DNA of 64,000 nucleotides from the human T2T-CHM13v2.0 reference genome, Homo sapiens, in the NCBI RefSeq assembly GCF_009914755.1, contig NC_060931.1. One strand, given 5' to 3'. Within the stretch, counting starts at the first letter, position 1. Every line of letters starts with the position of its first letter. The notes beneath the pieces were generated by a model. The model saw only the letters and a list, made by a program, of their open reading frames with translations, was not told where the DNA came from and ran no database searches. Position numbers and translations under genes: made by a program. Shown here one piece after another: positions 4,824 to 11,316 of the stretch.

Positions 4824-5527
4824 TCAAAGTTTTACTAGGTGCCAAGTTCGGTGATAAAAAGTGATGTTACAGAGGTGAATCAGATACCACATCTGCCCTG
4901 GAGGTGCTAAAAGTCAAGTTGGTAGTGGTGATCGGAGGATTTTCGGGGAGGAACAGACCTACAAACAGACAAGGACAGTCAACTGCTACTAGATGGAGGG
5001 CCAAGGACAGGAGGAGGGATCAGCTCTGTGTAGGGAGGGAGACAGGGAGGGCGGGCAGGGTGCATGCAGAGAATCCTGGAATCTTTGCCCTGGAAGGGAC
5101 ACCAGGAAGCAAAAGCCAACCCTCTCATTTTGTGGATGGAGAAACTGAGGCCCAGACTGGGGAAGTGACGTGGCCAGGGTCACTCGGTGAGATAGAGGCA
5201 GGCTCTCAGACTCCTGAATCCCAACCAGGGCCCTTTTGATGGTGCCAGATGCCCTTCCTGGTTTTCTGTGTCCCAATCCTTGTGTCCTAACTCCACTTTT
5301 GGAAAAACATTTGCCACCTCTATCCAGCGGTCACCTAAGAGTTGCCCACTCAGGAGCCGGGCGCTGCCAGCCCTTCCTCCAGAGGCGGCGTGGCCTCTTC
5401 TCAGGCCTAGAATGGGGTGGTTGCGTTTCTCTCTCTCTCTCTCTATCTCTCTTGCATTTTTGTGAATCTAATGATGAACTTATACTACCACACTTTTCCC
5501 TTCTCTTACACACCTTACCTACTAAAG

Positions 5528-5547
5528 GAGGAAGTGCCACTTTATTG
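5528..5547 (+). other. Candidate 20-nt poison microexon in an SRRM3 intron
   Basis: 115-nt AG-free zone with (TC)n, TGC motifs, CTAAT branch-like motif and pyrimidine tract, then AAG|GAGGAAGTGCCACTTTATTG|GTAAGT (consensus donor). Confidence 0.55.
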
Positions 5548-6217
5548 GTAAGTGGACGTTAACCAAGAGGGACTTAAAAATCAGAACTTAAAAAAAAAAA
5601 AAAGAAAAAGAAAAAGAAAAGAGAGAAACAGAAAGACAGTCGGGTGCTACTGACAGCTCCAAAGCTCTCTGCAGGGCCGGAAAACAAAGAAAAATATTAA
5701 CAGAAAAATGTCAGGTTCCCCAGGATCAGATATTGTTTTTGATTTTTGGTATCTAATGACATTTGTGGATTTTGTTTTTTTATTTCTGTTTTTCCTCCCT
5801 TTCTTCGGTTCAGTTTTGAGTTCAGTTGTCCCCCTCGCCCCCTCCCCCATCTGTGTGCCGTGTGACGCCCCCACCCCCTCCATCCCCTCGCCCACCCCCA
5901 AGCGCTGGGGGTCCGGCCTGGTGGGCTGGCCCTGGCCCCGCTCCCGGTGCCGCTCTCTCTTCTCTCTGCCGGGAATCGTCCGTCCCATCGGGGGGGCAAT
6001 GCCAGCCCCGATGCCTGTCCTGGAGCCCCTCCCCCTTTGGCCCCCGCCCCCCACCGCTCCGTCCCTCTTGTGTTTTGCATGCCAAGAACCCTGCATGAGC
6101 TGCACTGTTGAGGCCAGAAGGTGGACACCCAGGAGAGGCAGAGGCAGGGCAGGCGCGGGGAACCGTGTGTGCGATGCTCCGGGACTGGCAGCCCCCGGCT
6201 CGGGCCCGGTGAAAGCC

Positions 6218-6910
6218 CTCTCTCCTTCTCTCCCCCCACCCCACCCGCCCGCTCTCTCACCCCAACTTCTCGCTCCTCTTGCTCTGTCCTCTCTCTGCCC
6301 CCACTCTTGTCCCCTGCCTGTCTGGATTTTTTCTGTTTCTCGAACTTCTCCCTGGCTTCCATCCTTCTCTCTCTTCGCTCTTTCTCTCTTCCTCTCTCTC
6401 TCTTCTCTTCCCCCACCCCCGTCTCTCCTCTGTCTCTTCTTCTCACTGTCTCTGTCCCCTTCTCTCTTGCCCCCTTTTTTCCTTCTCCTCCCTCTCTCCT
6501 CCCTTGCTCTCTCCTCTCACCCTCGCTCTTTCGCCCTCTCTCTTTCTCATCTCTCTCCCTCTCACTCTGTCTCTCTCCTGCTCTTTTTCTCTCTTCCTCT
6601 TTCTCTTCTCTGCCTCCTCCCTCTCTCCCTCTTTCTTTCTTCTCTCTGTCTTTCCTCTCTCCCTCTCTCCTGTCTCTCTTCATTCTCTCTCTCCGTCTCT
6701 TTTTCTCTGTCTCTCGCTCTTTTTCTGTCTCTCTGTCTCTCTCTCTCTCCTCTCTTTCTGTCTCTGTCTCTCCCTCTTTCCTCTTTCTGTCTCTGTCTCT
6801 GTCTCTTTCTTTCAATCTCTCTCTCCCGTCTGTCTCCTCTCTTCTCTCTCTGTCTCTGTCTCTCTCGTCTCCCTCTCCCCCCTCCGTGCCCTGTCTGCCT
6901 CTCTCCCCGT
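6218..6910 (+). repeat. ~700-bp (CT)-rich polypyrimidine/polypurine low-complexity tract
   Basis: Almost purely C/T on the + strand, ending directly at the 6914 acceptor. Confidence 0.95.
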
Positions 6911-6913
6911 CAG

Positions 6914-7275
6914 AAGCCCAGCTCGCCCTCGCCCAGGGTCCGTGACAAGGCGGCGGCCGCCGCACCCACGCCGCCCGCGCGGGGGAAGGAGAGCCCGAGC
7001 CCGCGCTCGGCGCCGTCGTCCCAAGGTCGCGGAGGCCGCGCGGCGGGCGGGGCGGGCAGGCGGCGGCGGCGGCGGCGTAGGCGGCGGCGCTCGCGGTCCT
7101 CGGCGTCCGCGCCCCGCCGCAGGGGTCGCCGGCGCCCCCGGCCCGCGCCCCCCCGGGGCTCGTCGCGCTCGCTCAGCAGGGCCCGCTCCAGCAGCGACTC
7201 CGGCAGCGGCCGCGGCGCCCCCGGCCCCGGGCCCGAGCCCGGCTCTGAGCGAGGCCACGGCGGACACGGGAAACG
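6914..7275 (+). CDS. SRRM3: SRRM3 internal coding exon (phase 0 in, phase 2 out): KPSSPSPRVRDKAAAA...RRRRRRRRRRRSRSS...GHGKR
   Basis: Acceptor ccgtcAG|aag follows a very long pyrimidine tract; donor CG|gtgag at 7276. The Arg/Ser-rich frame splices in frame to the next three exons. Confidence 0.9.
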
Positions 7276-7299
7276 GTGAGCGTGCTGGACCCGGAGCTG

Positions 7300-7960
7300 G
7301 ACTCCCGCCCCCACCCCGCACAGGGCTCCCCTCCACTAGCGGATCCCTGCCCACGGGATCCCTCCCCGCGCTGAGCTACCCTCCAGGGATCCCAACCCCC
7401 TCCCACCGAGCTACCCCCATGGATTCCACCCCCCCATGAGCTACCCCCCACGGATCCCAACCCCTCCTCACTGAACTACCCCCCACGGATCTCAACCCCC
7501 CACGGAGCTCTCCTCCCTCTCCACGGACCCCAAACCCCTATGGACCCCATGGATCCTCCCATGGATTTCCTCCGCACACTGATCTCAACTCCCCTCTCAC
7601 AGGGCTCCCTCCCTCGACGACCCCAACTCTCTCTAGGGAGTTACCCTCCCTCCACTGACCTCCAAACTCCAGGGAGTTTCCCTCCCCACACTGATCCCAG
7701 CCCCCCGACGGAGTTCTCCCTCCACTGATGCCAACCCCCCAGGGAGCTCCCTCCCCACCCTGAGCTACCCCCGGTTATCCTGACCCCTCCCCACAACTGA
7801 TCCGTCTCCCCTTACTGATCACTGCCCCCAGGGAACCCCCTCTCCTCCCATGAGGCTCCCCGCTTACTGATCACTCTCCCCCCATCCCGCAGAACAATCT
7901 CCTCCACTGATCTCCCCCAACACGCCCCCTCACGGGGCTCCCCCTGAACTGACCCCTGCC
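7300..7960. repeat. Degenerate C-rich tandem repeat (~30-35 bp unit resembling GGATCCCAACCCCCTCCCACCGAGCTACCC)
   Basis: Recurrent ggatcc, gagctaccc and actgatc motifs filling the 7276-8120 intron. Confidence 0.7.
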
Positions 7961-8120
7961 CCTCACTAGGCTCCGCGTTCACTGCGCACTCCGCGCGAAC
8001 TGACCACAAACTACACGGACCCCGCCCCTCCGCCCTAAGCCCCGCCCCAGGGAACCCTCCCCGCCCCCAGCCCCCTTTCCGGGTCGCTGAGCCCTATCCC
8101 GCGCCGTCTCCCTCCTCCAG

Positions 8121-8345
8121 GGCCAAGGAGCGGCCCCCGCGCGCGCGGCCCGCCAGCACCTCTCCGTCCCCGGGCGCGCACGGCCGGCGCGGCGGCCCAG
8201 AAGGGAAGAGCTCGTCGCGCAGCCCCGGCCCGCACCCCCGCTCCTGGAGCTCCAGCCGCTCGCCCTCCAAATCTCGCTCGCGCTCTGCGGAGAAGCGGCC
8301 CCACAGCCCCAGCCGCTCGCCGTCGCCCAAGAAGCCCCTCAGCCG
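8121..8345 (+). CDS. SRRM3: SRRM3 internal coding exon (225 nt): AKERPPRARPAS...SRSPSKSRSRSAEKRPHSPSRSPSPKKPLSR
   Basis: ctcctccAG| acceptor and CG|gtgag donor; symmetric phase 2; RS/SP-rich with no stops. Confidence 0.92.
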
Positions 8346-8436
8346 GTGAGTGCCCGCCCGGACCGGGCCGACGGGGCGGGCGGCGGGGTGGAGCGGCCGG
8401 GCCGCGTCGCTCACTTACCTCGCGCCGGCCCCGCAG

Positions 8437-8574
8437 GGACAAGGACGGCGAGGGCCGCGCAAGGCACTCTGAGGCCGAGGCCACCCGCGCCCGGCGCCGC
8501 TCCCGCAGCTACTCGCCCATCCGCAAGCGGCGCCGGGACTCGCCAAGCTTCATGGAGCCGCGGCGCATCACCAG
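8437..8574 (+). CDS. SRRM3: SRRM3 exon encoding the N-terminal part of the eMIC domain (...SRSYSPIRKRRRDSPSFMEPRRITS)
   Basis: ccgcAG| acceptor and AG|gtatgg donor; 138 nt, phase 2-2. RRRDSPSFMEPRRITS is the SRRM3/SRRM4 C-terminal signature. Confidence 0.93.
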
Positions 8575-8996
8575 GTATGGAGGGTCTTGGGGGGGCCGGT
8601 GGCGCAGGGCTGGGGCCGCTGACCCGGATCAGGGACAGAGACCTCGGCCCGGGGACCTTCTCTGAGGATCCACTGAACCTGGCACGGGGATGGGGGGGGG
8701 TGCTAAGGGACAATGAGTGGGTTCTGCCAGGGTAGGGGGCCAGGGGAGGAGGGGGCTAGAACTGGAGGTGCTGGGGTCTATCAGAGAGACAGGTGCAGGA
8801 GGCCACGCAGAAGGAAGGGCCACGGTGGGGGCCTGAGGGCCCATGAAGGGGAGGGGGCTCTGTACTTGGGTCTGGGTGGGCCGCAGCCGGCATGGAATTC
8901 AGCTCTGCAAGAGTCCCGCCATCCCTCCGGAGCCCCTCCCGCCCTCCCTGCATCCGTCTCCGGACAATGATGTCTCCTTTTCTCCTTCATCTCAAG

Positions 8997-9075
8997 GTCC
9001 AGCCTGCTGAGTGGCCTGTGGTCAGCCTGGGGGCCAGGCGGACCCCTCTGCACAGGCTGCCTGGGAGATGCCCAA
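8997..9075 (+). other. Candidate 79-nt frameshifting cassette exon that splits the eMIC domain
   Basis: tctccttttctccttcatctcAAG| acceptor and CAA|gtgagc donor; lies between the two eMIC-coding exons. Confidence 0.55.
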
Positions 9076-9666
9076 GTGAGCTGGTCTGGCCCTGGTCAGC
9101 TGTCCGTCTGTCTGCCTCTCTCTTTCTCACTAACCTGGGGGATTTGGAGGAGGGGGCACAGCAGTCTGGTCTCTGGGGCAGCTGTCAGAGGAGCCAGCCA
9201 CACCTCCTTGCCCTACACAGCTGTGGGGCTGTGCCCAGGGCGTGGCTGGTGAAGCCATTATCAGTTTCTCTGCTAGGACTGGAAGTGTCTGGGCCTGGGT
9301 CTCCGGGTGACATTATGGTCTGCCTTTGTGGAAATCACCCTGAAGCCCTAGATTACCCTGGCAGGGGGTTGGGGGGAACACAGGCAAAAAGTTCTGAGCC
9401 CAACTCTGCCACTGCCTTGCTGGGCAGCCTTGGGAGATCGGTGTGCCTCTCTGGGCCTCGGTTGCCACATCTGTACAATAACCAGGGTTTCGTGAGCATC
9501 TTTTCAGTTCTAACAGGGTATGATTATCAAACTAGTCCCTCCTAGTCCTTGGTGATCCAGGTAACCAAGAAGCATGGGGTGGGCATTACCCCAGAGCTCA
9601 AAGCCAGACCGCCTTGAAGGAGAAGCCAGATTGTGCTACTGCTTCTTTTTTTTTTTTTTTTTTTAA

Positions 9667-10026
<360 letters not shown>

Positions 10027-10405
10027 TGAACCCAGGGATCTTCCTGCGTCCCCCCTTCCTTCTGATGCCAACTCACCAGGCTGGGGACGCCCCCAGACAG
10101 GTCACACACCCTGCCCGTAGGCCAGGCCCTCACACCTTCCACCTGGCACCCACTCAGCCCCTCTCCCAGGCTGCCTCCTCCTCCACTAACGTACACCTGT
10201 TTTCTTCCTCAGAATTAACCCTGCGACGGGGCAGTGTTGCCCCTTAACCTCTCTTTTCTCTTCTCTGGGTCATAGCCTCCTGGCTTCCAACTAACTCTGG
10301 GCCAGCGGGAGGTAGCTGAGTGAGGAGTGGGGCCGGCGGGACTGGACCGGACCGTGGGCATGGGGAGCAGCGGCCAGGACTCCCCTCCTTGTTCCTTTCG
10401 AGTGA

Positions 10406-10903
<498 letters not shown>

Positions 10904-11087
10904 TGAAGAAAAGCAAAATGATCAACATGGAATTTGCAAGTAACCAATGACCGTCAGATTCCATTTGGAGAAGGCAGGTGTCTCTAAGGCCAGGGCTCAG
11001 GGGAAACTGAGGCAGGAAGCCCTGGCCGCTGCTGGGATGGGGCTCGGGGCCTGGGATGGCCTGTAATCAGCTTTTTCTTCCCGGCAG

Positions 11088-11316
11088 CGCCCGCAAGCGT
11101 CCTATTCCATACTACCGGCCCAGCCCCTCTTCCTCCTCCAGCTGCTTGAGCAGCGACTACTCGACCCGGAGCCACAGCCGCAGCCCCAGCCCCGGCCACA
11201 GCCACGGGAGCTACAGCAGTCGCAGCCATGGGACCCGCAGCCGGACACGCAGCCCCTCGAGGACCCCCAGTCCCAGCTACCACAGCCGGAGCAGCTCTGA
11301 GAGCGGGGGCTTCTGA
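11088..11316 (+). CDS. SRRM3: SRRM3 last coding exon, completing eMIC (S-ARKRPIPYYRPS...SSSESGGF*)
   Basis: ctttttcttcccggcAG| acceptor; joining 8574 to 11088 gives RRITSARKRPIPYYR; TGA at 11314-11316. Confidence 0.93.

What the first reader, a model, noticed from the sequence alone, without database searches (positions are those of the whole stretch)
5411..5553. Candidate poison microexon in SRRM3 that builds a stop codon across the splice junction (possible autoregulatory loop)
Seen: a 115-nt AG-free zone (5411-5525) with TGC motifs (5422, 5453), a (TC)n run (5428-5452), a CTAAT branch/QKI-like motif and a pyrimidine tract. It is followed by a 20-nt segment GAG GAA GTG CCA CTT TAT TG and a consensus GTAAGT donor. 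The next coding exon starts in phase 0 with AAG, so inclusion reads E-E-V-P-L-Y-TG|A = TGA. The NAGNAG alternative acceptor (5531) gives the same stop. Three further exon junctions lie downstream, so the mRNA would be an NMD substrate, or would encode a protein lacking eMIC. Established: SRRM3/SRRM4 activate neural microexons through upstream UGC and SRSF11-bound UC repeats, and many SR-type factors autoregulate through poison exons. Inference: SRRM3/4 activity switches on a microexon that destroys SRRM3 mRNA, giving negative feedback on the microexon programme. Caveats: the acceptor is AAG, the UGCs are further upstream than typical, and I cannot tell whether the exon is already annotated.
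Basis: partly seen in the sequence, partly recalled or inferred. Interest (0 to 1): 0.85.

Follow-up and report, generated by a model that had tools for sequence, protein, structure and literature searches.

The report
Conserved frame-breaking microexon in SRRM3
A 20-base mini-exon hidden in an intron of SRRM3, kept almost unchanged in the sister gene SRRM4, would cut off the domain that switches on brain microexons, and probably acts as a built-in brake on that programme.

Summary
Window 5528-5547 is a 20-nt segment with an AAG acceptor, a GTAAGT donor and a 115-nt AG-free zone upstream. It is the only such configuration on the + strand of the 64 kb window. Spliced before exon 12 (phase 0), it reads E-E-V-P-L-Y-TG|A, a stop 724 nt before the last exon junction.

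New evidence:
1. The block from -68 to +12 around the exon is the most similar non-repeat DNA between SRRM3 and its paralogue SRRM4. SRRM4 carries a 16-nt counterpart at the collinear place that also breaks the frame (EEFLLDHWVGVCC*). A motif spanning both splice sites occurs only at these two places in the genome.
2. A published supplementary table lists a 20-nt mouse Srrm3 exon (VastDB MmuEX6021616) as eMIC-sensitive. That means less inclusion when Srrm3/4 are depleted.

So the exon is very probably real, old and frame-breaking, and the feedback idea has sparse direct support. NMD, human junction reads and mouse-human orthology by sequence were not testable here. The event is already catalogued, and I found no text that discusses it in print. 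It is a new member of a known kind, of moderate interest.

The parts
5411..5525 (+). AG-free zone upstream of the acceptor (115 nt)
   Evidence: second longest of 5114 inter-AG gaps on the + strand.
5422..5455 (+).
   Evidence: Present. It lies outside the paralogue-conserved block. The (TC)n run is absent from SRRM4 and the UGC positions are not kept.
5460..5527 (+). Conserved upstream intron block: TCTAATGATGAACT (CTAAT at 5468-5472, branch-site-like, 56 nt from the AG), pyrimidine tract with TCTCTT, CCTTACCTAC, TACTAAAG acceptor
   Evidence: 56 of 74 aligned columns identical to SRRM4, against 34 of 78 in the 70 nt further upstream.
5528..5547 (+). 20-nt cassette microexon (T2T chr7:77567528-77567547); reads E-E-V-P-L-Y-TG
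   Evidence: 13 of 20 columns identical to the 16-nt SRRM4 counterpart. Same length as mouse Srrm3 exon MmuEX6021616.
5548..5559 (+). 5' splice site GTAAGTGGA and flank
   Evidence: 10 of 12 identical to SRRM4. 7 of 9 consensus positions.
6077..6097 (+). Tandem GCATG (RBFOX-type) motifs 16 nt apart, about 530 nt downstream of the microexon
   Evidence: the SRRM4 intron has a like pair 15 nt apart. Such a pair appears in 4 of 5000 and 7 of 5000 dinucleotide shuffles of the two introns. Found post hoc, so suggestive only.
6914..7275 (+). Exon 12 (phase 0); its first base A completes the TGA stop after inclusion
   Evidence: Hub annotation.

Best explanation
Window 5528-5547 is a genuine, anciently conserved cassette microexon in the SRRM3 intron that precedes exon 12. 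SRRM4 has a paralogous 16-nt version. When it is spliced in, the reading frame ends at once (EEVPLY-stop), upstream of the exons that encode the eMIC domain. The mRNA then either becomes a substrate for nonsense-mediated decay or encodes an eMIC-less protein. Inclusion is promoted by eMIC activity (SRRM3 and/or SRRM4), so the exon gives negative feedback on the dose of the regulators of the neural microexon programme.

Shown: the anatomy, the frame effect, the paralogue conservation, and the mouse catalogue entry with its eMIC-sensitive label.
Inferred: that the mouse exon is the orthologue, that the isoform is degraded by NMD, and that the loop is physiologically meaningful.

My odds are about 0.85 that it is a real frame-breaking cassette exon under selection, and about 0.55 for the whole chain including eMIC-driven feedback.
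For: (1) Anatomy and frame.
(2) A genome-wide DNA search with window 5400-5900 gave 5 matches: itself, three to the A-rich tract only, and chr12:119131902-119131996 (77% identity, E 4.2e-7). The chr12 match lies on the same strand 12 kb upstream of the SRRM4 last coding exon, which is 56% identical in protein to SRRM3's.
(3) The motif CTAAAGGAGGA-N(4-16)-TTGGTAAGTGGA occurs 2 times forward and 0 reverse in 3.1 Gb, with 0 for the reversed control. The two places are these.
(4) After repeat-like HSPs were removed (18 of 136 kept), the microexon block (77.2% over 101 columns) is more similar than the two coding segments that also match collinearly. These are the last exon (64.5% over 265) and the end of exon 14 (69.2% over 91).
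(5) Conservation is confined to the splicing footprint. Identity is 56/74 at -70..-1, 13/20 in the exon and 10/12 at +1..+12. Beyond that it is 34/78, 24/53 and 36/81.
(6) The SRRM4 16-nt exon also breaks the frame. The next exon (305 nt) is open only in frame 0, and inclusion gives EEFLLDHWVGVCC*.
(7) Table S2 of PMC8797185 has the row: Srrm3, MmuEX6021616, chr5:135867127-135867146, length 20, flanking exon ends 135857215 and 135868173, group eMICsens. That paper defines eMIC-sensitive as dPSI <= -15 on Srrm3/4 knock-down in N2A cells, or <= -10 in Srrm4 knock-out hippocampus and cortex.
(8) The mouse exon lies 1027 nt before the next exon, the human one 1366 nt.
Against: - No human junction read, EST or RefSeq model supports inclusion. 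The hub table lists 2 transcripts and neither has the exon.
- Orthology with the mouse exon rests on gene, length, order and spacing only. No mouse sequence was available.
- The label is 'sensitive', not 'dependent'. It may come from a knock-down of the host gene itself, and I could not see which dataset gave it.
- No UGC lies between the candidate branch site and the acceptor in SRRM3.
- UGC positions and the (UC)n run are not conserved between the paralogues.
- Supplemental Table 7 of a meta-analysis of KCl-activated neurons reports no high-confidence splicing or expression change for SRRM4 or SRRM3.
- NMD sensitivity is only predicted from the position of the stop.
- I saw no Srrm4 gene row for the 16-nt exon in the same table, but that check rested on recalled mouse coordinates and is inconclusive.
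Confidence: 0.55

Rival explanations
1. Protein switch rather than decay. The exon is real, but its main product is a stable truncated SRRM3 (and SRRM4) that keeps the N-terminal and RS regions and lacks eMIC. This protein would have a function of its own or act as a competitor, echoing the eMIC-less isoforms of the ancestral Srrm234 gene.
For: In Drosophila a proximal exon before the last eMIC exon serves either as a terminal exon or as a 'poison' exon and yields eMIC-less protein isoforms (PMC8797185, passages). Both human tails begin E-E-hydrophobic-x-L. Reading through the donor also stops at once in both genes (EEVPLYW*, EEFLLGKWI*). SRRM3 already has an annotated 79-nt alternative exon (8997-9075) that replaces the C-terminal 76 residues by frameshift.
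Against: The stop lies 724 nt and three junctions before the end of the mRNA, the classic NMD configuration. The exon interior is the least conserved part of the block (13/20), so the peptide is not under strong constraint. There is no AATAAA or ATTAAA in the 1366 nt after the SRRM3 donor. The fly exon sits at a different place, after the first eMIC exon, so homology is not shown.
Confidence: 0.15
2. The exon is a poison exon controlled mainly by other neuronal regulators (RBFOX through the tandem GCAUG downstream, PTBP1/2 through the UCUCUU tract). It would then be a developmental or cell-type dial on SRRM3/4 dose, not an autoregulatory loop.
For: Paired GCATG motifs 15-16 nt apart lie 530-580 nt downstream of the microexon in both paralogues. 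Such a pair appears in 4 of 5000 and 7 of 5000 shuffles. A conserved TCTCTT-containing pyrimidine tract lies upstream. The canonical proximal UGC is missing in SRRM3. The mouse exon is only 'eMIC-sensitive', not 'eMIC-dependent'.
Against: The mouse label still shows a response to Srrm3/4 loss. In real sequence GCATG pairs are not rare: 4 on the + strand of the 64 kb window and 2 in 24 kb of SRRM4. The motif was found post hoc among three motif types tried. No binding or perturbation data were seen.
Confidence: 0.15
3. Decoy or structural intron element. The conserved acceptor-like and donor-like signals recruit U2AF/U1 without productive inclusion, and control retention or the rate of removal of this intron. 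Alternatively, the upstream CCUUACCU pairs with the donor GGUAAG as a regulatory helix.
For: A decoy has no length constraint, which fits 16 versus 20 nt. The two most conserved pieces, CACCUUACC and GGUAAGUG, are complementary and pair in the consensus fold of both genes (8 invariant pairs of 14 predicted).
Against: A 20-nt exon of mouse Srrm3 is catalogued as a spliced cassette event. The folds are no more stable than shuffles (z -0.43, -0.19, -0.23, -0.02). Only 1 of the 14 predicted pairs shows a change on both sides, and the 8 pairs of the CACCUUACC/GGUAAGUG helix are invariant in both genes, so that helix has no covariation support.
Confidence: 0.1
4. Chance splice-like sequence, or a DNA-level element such as an enhancer kept in both paralogues, that is never spliced in human.
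For: There is no human transcript evidence in the hub annotation. Duplicated conserved non-coding elements near paralogues do exist (recalled, not tested).
Against: The conserved block ends exactly at the limits of a splicing footprint and is strand-specific in its signals. The genome-wide E-value is 4.2e-7 at the collinear place of the paralogue. There is the mouse cassette event.
Confidence: 0.05

Closest known systems
REST exon N (16-nt microexon activated by nSR100/SRRM4, giving REST4)
   Same: A very short neural exon whose length is not a multiple of three. SRRM4 promotes its inclusion, which creates a stop at the start of the next exon and removes the functional C-terminal part of a regulator (review PMC7235277, passages).
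   Different: Here the target is the splicing regulator's own gene family, so the sign of the loop is negative. REST inactivation instead de-represses Srrm3, a positive loop (PMC7652395, passage). The proximal UGC enhancer typical of SRRM4 targets is not evident in SRRM3.
Poison exons of SR proteins and other splicing factors (AS-NMD autoregulation)
   Same: A highly conserved cassette exon in a splicing regulator introduces an in-frame stop well upstream of the last junction, and inclusion is driven by the factor or its paralogues. This is described in passages of bioRxiv 10.64898/2026.09.14.751627 and PMC11648925.
   Different: It is a microexon of 16-20 nt rather than a long ultraconserved exon. 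Conservation is shown here between paralogues, not across species. NMD is not shown.
Drosophila Srrm234 proximal 'poison'/terminal exon
   Same: An alternative exon in the 3' part of the same gene family decides whether the eMIC domain is made (PMC8797185, passages).
   Different: The fly exon lies after the first eMIC-coding exon, can end the transcript at its own poly(A) site, and is skipped under Elav/Fne. The human exon lies four coding exons before the end and has no poly(A) signal after it. No sequence similarity was tested with fly. The SRRM2 3' region (20 kb) has no counterpart.
Annotated 79-nt alternative exon of SRRM3 (window 8997-9075)
   Same: A frame-shifting alternative exon of the same gene that removes eMIC sequence.
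   Different: It is placed between the last two coding exons, and its stop falls in the last exon, so NMD is not predicted. No collinear counterpart in SRRM4 was found.

Membership tests
SRRM3/SRRM4 (eMIC)-regulated neural microexon | Length of at most about 27-30 nt | tested here: met
   20 nt in SRRM3 and 16 nt in SRRM4.
SRRM3/SRRM4 (eMIC)-regulated neural microexon | Inclusion falls when SRRM3/4 are lost, or rises when they are expressed | tested here: inconclusive
   A mouse Srrm3 20-nt exon is labelled eMICsens in table S2 of PMC8797185 (definition). Orthology is inferred, not aligned. I saw no PSI values and no human data.
SRRM3/SRRM4 (eMIC)-regulated neural microexon | UGC-containing intronic enhancer close to the 3' splice site (as described in PMC10551640 and PMC7235277, passages) | tested here: inconclusive
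   UGC lies at -75 and -106 in SRRM3 and at -44, -69 and -100 in SRRM4. SRRM3 has none between the candidate branch site (-56) and the AG. The positions are not conserved.
SRRM3/SRRM4 (eMIC)-regulated neural microexon | Weak acceptor/pyrimidine tract with a strong donor and conserved flanking introns | tested here: met
   The acceptor is AAG, the tract is interrupted by A, and the donor is TTG|GTAAGT with 7 of 9 consensus positions. The flanks are conserved with the paralogue. MaxEnt scores were not available.
Poison exon (AS-NMD) of a splicing regulator | Inclusion creates a premature stop more than 50-55 nt upstream of the last exon junction | tested here: met
   The TGA spans the junction with exon 12 and lies 724 nt and three junctions before the last junction (hub annotation). 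The SRRM4 stop comes 13 codons after the start of its microexon.
Poison exon (AS-NMD) of a splicing regulator | Inclusion isoform is stabilised when NMD is blocked | not testable with these tools
   No expression data are reachable.
Poison exon (AS-NMD) of a splicing regulator | Unusual sequence conservation of the exon and its flanks | tested here: met
   It is the best non-repeat nucleotide match between SRRM3 and SRRM4, above the coding exons. Cross-species conservation is not testable here.
Recursive-splicing (RS) exon | A 5' splice site is regenerated at the start of the exon after the first splicing step | tested here: not met
   The exon starts with GAGGAA (SRRM3) or GAGGAG (SRRM4), not GT.
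C/D box snoRNA (because of ATGATGA at 5472-5478) | C box plus D box with terminal stem; match to an Rfam model | tested here: not met
   No Rfam match at the site at E <= 1. The only row is a sub-threshold lncRNA model on the other strand at 6008-6121. SRRM4 has ATGATGG at the aligned place.

The most novel reading that the evidence does not exclude
The 20-nt (SRRM3) and 16-nt (SRRM4) exons are one ancient device, inherited from before the two genes split. Through it, the eMIC activity of either paralogue poisons the mRNAs of both, giving auto- and cross-regulation. It would work against the known positive REST loop to fix the dose of the whole neural, retinal and islet microexon programme. 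The paired GCAUG sites would tie it to neuronal maturation. If so, blocking the exon with an antisense oligonucleotide would raise SRRM3/SRRM4 where microexon inclusion is deficient.
Probability: 0.28. Interest if true: 0.8.

Novelty: new member of a known kind. Interest (0 to 1): 0.58.

Why it matters
SRRM3 and SRRM4 are described as the master regulators of neural microexons, and their dose matters. Passages describe misregulated microexons in autism and an autism-like phenotype in heterozygous Srrm4 mutant mice. Passages describe transcriptional control through REST and a fall of nSR100 on neuronal activity. I found no text on a splicing-level brake inside the genes themselves.

A frame-breaking microexon conserved in both paralogues and sensitive to eMIC activity would be such a brake. 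It would make the homeostasis of the programme directly testable, and it is the kind of exon that antisense oligonucleotides can mask to raise productive mRNA.

Two limits on novelty apply. The mouse event is already in VastDB and in a published supplementary table. One 2025 paper also says, citing work I could not read, that a microexon in nSR100 regulates its expression. The SRRM4 half may therefore already be in print.

Tried and rejected
- RNA structure. Single-sequence folds of both paralogue blocks (66, 62, 121 and 121 nt) are no more stable than shuffles, with z from -0.02 to -0.43. The consensus fold has 8 invariant pairs (CAC.CUUACC with GGUAAG.GUG), and only 1 of 14 pairs changes on both sides. 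I keep this as an idea, not as evidence.
- SRRM2 counterpart. In 20 kb covering the large exon and the 3' end of SRRM2 (located through PF08312), there is no GGTAAGTG and no blastn-short hit better than 12 nt at E 0.11.
- Terminal-exon reading. There is no AATAAA or ATTAAA in the SRRM3 intron after the donor, and one ATTAAA in SRRM4.
- Rfam. Nothing at the site.
- Upstream-exon homology by tblastx over 25-30 kb. Only low-complexity and repeat hits came up; the two I inspected were A-rich tracts. That the two microexons lie in the same intron therefore rests on collinearity with the downstream exons and on phase 0 in both genes.
- Supplement phrase searches across table cells. The control phrase failed, so the empty result means nothing.
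- Whole-word searches in the supplements of PMC9303857 and PMC13281805 showed only sample and genotype labels.
- Search for an Srrm4 gene row in table S2 by coordinate prefixes. None was seen, but the mouse coordinates were recalled, so this is inconclusive.
- KCl meta-analysis. It lists 'none' for SRRM3 and SRRM4 splicing change.
- Literature. Ten full-text searches found no passage that describes a poison or autoregulatory exon in SRRM3 or SRRM4. Of the 15 papers opened I saw only matched passages, plus supplements for 4 of them. Torres-Mendez 2019 and Nakano 2019 are not held. Quesnel-Vallieres 2016 carries no PMC id in the reference list I saw, and I did not try to open it. bioRxiv supplements are closed.
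Full report
THE OBSERVATION. AAG lies at 5525-5527, the 20-nt GAGGAAGTGCCACTTTATTG at 5528-5547, and GTAAGT at 5548-5553. The AG-free stretch 5411-5525 (115 nt) is the second longest of 5114 inter-AG gaps on the + strand; only 2 reach 115 nt. TGC lies at -106 and -75, a TC repeat at -100 to -80, and CTAAT at -60.

The annotated coding parts from 6914 to 11316 total 954 nt and translate cleanly to the terminal stop, so exon 12 begins in phase 0. Inclusion therefore reads EEVPLY then TG|A. The GAG acceptor three bases on gives EVPLY-stop. The stop is 724 nt and three junctions before the last exon junction.

As a chance control, of 5 GTAAGT sites on the + strand (13 AG-to-GTAAGT combinations 3-30 nt apart) this is the only one with an AG-free zone of 50 nt or more. 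The - strand (7 sites, 17 combinations) has one, with a pyrimidine-poor upstream region (0.35). By crude counts its signals equal those of annotated exons in the window: donor 7 of 9 consensus positions, upstream pyrimidine 0.78. AAG acceptors also serve HSPB1 exon 2 and the annotated 79-nt SRRM3 exon.

PARALOGUE CONSERVATION (new). The window's own genome could be searched. Window 5400-5900 gave 5 matches. These were itself, three that cover only the A-rich tract after the exon, and chr12:119131902-119131996 on the + strand, 77% identical to window 5460-5556, E 4.2e-7 for the whole genome.

That chr12 place lies 12 kb upstream, on the same strand, of a stretch 56% identical in protein to the last SRRM3 coding exon (tblastn). 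This is the 3' part of SRRM4. The alignment shows ...TCTAATGATGGACT...TCTCTTACACCTTACCTACCTACTAAAG|GAGGAGTTCTTGCTTG|GTAAGTGGA, a 16-nt counterpart.

A motif spanning acceptor and donor (CTAAAGGAGGA, 4-16 free bases, TTGGTAAGTGGA) occurs twice in 3.1 Gb, at these two places, with none on the reverse strand or for the reversed control.

I compared 12.7 kb of SRRM3 with 24 kb of SRRM4 and dropped repeat-like multi-hit HSPs (18 of 136 kept). The microexon block (77.2% over 101 columns) is then more similar than the only two coding segments that also match collinearly. These are the last exon (64.5% over 265) and the end of exon 14 (69.2% over 91). Two better-scoring rows belong to a repeat present twice in SRRM3 intron 14 and are not collinear.

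Conservation is confined to a splicing footprint. Identity is 56 of 74 columns at -70..-1, 13 of 20 in the exon, and 10 of 12 at +1..+12. Just outside it is 34/78, 24/53 and 36/81.

Zebrafish has separate srrm3 and srrm4 genes (mutants and primers in the supplements of PMC9303857; PMC13281805). The two genes therefore split before the fish-tetrapod ancestor; that this is more than 400 million years ago is my recollection. Neutral intron sequence does not survive that long. The two genes lie on different chromosomes and their coding exons have diverged, which makes recent gene conversion unlikely; this is an inference.

FRAME EFFECT IN SRRM4. The exon after the SRRM4 microexon (chr12:119132814-119133118, 305 nt, cag|ATC...AAG|gtcagt) is open only in the frame that starts at its first base. 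Inclusion of the 16 nt gives EEFLLDHWVGVCC-stop. The shared property is thus a length not divisible by three and an early stop before the eMIC-coding exons. A stop built across the junction is not shared; that is particular to SRRM3.

EVIDENCE THAT THE EXON IS SPLICED AND RESPONDS TO eMIC ACTIVITY. The hub's RefSeq table has no such exon. However, table S2 of Torres-Mendez et al. [quoted passage not shown]

The paper's methods define eMIC-sensitive as dPSI <= -15 between Srrm3/4 knock-down and control N2A cells, or <= -10 in Srrm4 knock-out hippocampus and cortex. So a 20-nt cassette exon of mouse Srrm3, 1027 nt before the next exon (human: 1366 nt), is catalogued and is included less when eMIC proteins are depleted.

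I could not align mouse DNA, so orthology is inferred from gene, length, order and spacing. I did not see PSI values or which dataset gave the label. The main text of that paper does not discuss the exon in any passage I retrieved.

MECHANISM. The best-supported reading is a conserved poison microexon. Inclusion, favoured by SRRM3/SRRM4 activity, ends the frame before the eMIC domain. The mRNA is predicted to be degraded by NMD or to give an eMIC-less protein, which lowers active SRRM3. This negative loop would oppose the published positive loop in which SRRM3/4 inactivate REST and so de-repress Srrm3 (PMC7652395, passage).

The (TC)n run has no counterpart in SRRM4, and the UGCs sit at -75/-106 versus -44/-69/-100, at or beyond the edge of the conserved block. 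SRRM3 has no UGC between the candidate branch site CTAAT (-60) and the AG.

What is conserved is this set of elements:
- TCTAATGATGRACT.
- A pyrimidine tract with TCTCTT.
- CCTTACCTAC.
- A TACTAA-like motif abutting the AAG.
- A purine-rich exon start GAGGA.
- TTG|GTAAGTGGA.

Both introns also carry a pair of GCATG motifs 15-16 nt apart, 530-580 nt downstream of the microexon. Such a pair appears in 4 of 5000 and 7 of 5000 dinucleotide shuffles. It is commoner in real DNA (4 pairs on the + strand of the 64 kb window, 2 in the 24 kb of SRRM4), and I found it post hoc. It points to RBFOX as a possible co-regulator and no more than that.

RIVALS. I consider four:
- A stable eMIC-less protein isoform rather than decay.
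- Control mainly by RBFOX/PTBP rather than autoregulation.
- A decoy or structural element.
- Chance, or a DNA-level element.

The complementarity between the conserved CACCUUACC and the donor GGUAAGUG is real. The folds are not more stable than shuffles and there is no covariation. The block is not an RS exon (it starts with GAGGA), not a snoRNA and not a terminal exon in SRRM3 (no poly(A) hexamer). SRRM2, the paralogue without eMIC, has no counterpart in 20 kb of its 3' part.

The fly Srrm234 'poison' exon works alike but sits at another position. The annotated 79-nt SRRM3 exon 8997-9075, which shifts the frame of the last exon, is positionally closer to it.

KNOWN OR NEW. Ten full-text searches and matched passages from 15 papers gave no description of a poison or autoregulatory exon in SRRM3 or SRRM4.

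Two caveats apply. First, the mouse event is already in VastDB and in a published supplementary table. Second, the introduction of PMC12129014 says depolarisation regulates 'a microexon in ... nSR100, which regulates its expression', citing Quesnel-Vallieres 2015 and 2016. The 2015 paper has no such passage among those I retrieved. I did not try to open the 2016 paper, because the reference list I saw gave no PMC id for it. The same paper's Supplemental Table 7 lists no KCl-induced splicing change for SRRM4 or SRRM3. Torres-Mendez 2019 and Nakano 2019 are not held, and bioRxiv supplements are closed. The SRRM4 half, or both halves, may therefore be in print where I could not look.

VERDICT. 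The exon is very probably real, ancient and frame-breaking (about 0.85). eMIC-driven negative feedback is the best single reading (about 0.55 for the whole chain), but NMD, human inclusion and the identity of the regulator remain to be shown. It is a new member of a known kind (poison-exon control of a splicing regulator). Interest is 0.58.

Noticed in passing
window 6216-6911: Exon 12 of SRRM3 is preceded by a 696-nt AG-free zone, the longest in the window. It includes a roughly 500-nt imperfect (TC)n array at 6366-6877. This is an extreme pyrimidine tract that implies a very distant branch point or unusual recognition of this exon. SRRM4 has only a short TC tract about 100 nt before its corresponding exon.
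   Followed up: partly
window 6077-6097; SRRM4 chr12:119132567-119132586: There are paired GCATG (RBFOX-type) motifs 15-16 nt apart in the intron between the microexon and the next exon in both paralogues. Local context is similar: GCATGC, 7-8 bases, CTGCATGA.
   Followed up: partly
window 8997-9075: The annotated 79-nt alternative exon of the second RefSeq transcript shifts the frame. The last exon is then read out of frame, which replaces the final 76 residues (SARKRPIPYYRPSP...) with an unrelated tail ending in the last exon. This is a second way to make SRRM3 without an intact C-terminal eMIC region. No collinear counterpart in SRRM4 was found.
   Followed up: partly
window 5507-5519 and 5546-5555: The conserved upstream CACCUUACC resembles the 5' end of U1 snRNA (recalled). 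It is complementary to the conserved donor GGUAAGUG. The loop between the arms is 27 nt in both paralogues, because a 4-nt insertion upstream offsets the 4-nt shorter exon in SRRM4 (my count on the sequences). The folds are not significant.
   Followed up: partly
window 5590-5636: An A-rich low-complexity tract (AAAAAG-like units) lies 40 nt after the donor. It matched unrelated A-rich places on chr3 and chr8 and is not conserved in SRRM4.
   Followed up: no
window 9690-9947 and 10579-10837: Two copies of a repeat of about 260 nt in SRRM3 intron 14 both match one element in the SRRM4 region at about 82% identity. It is presumably an interspersed repeat.
   Followed up: no
PMC12129014, introduction: The paper says that heterozygous mutations forcing skipping of an nSR100 microexon phenocopy autism-like traits. 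The cited 2015 paper describes a deletion of exons 7-8, so the sentence may conflate two things. It may also point to an nSR100 microexon described in the 2016 paper, which I could not read.
   Followed up: partly
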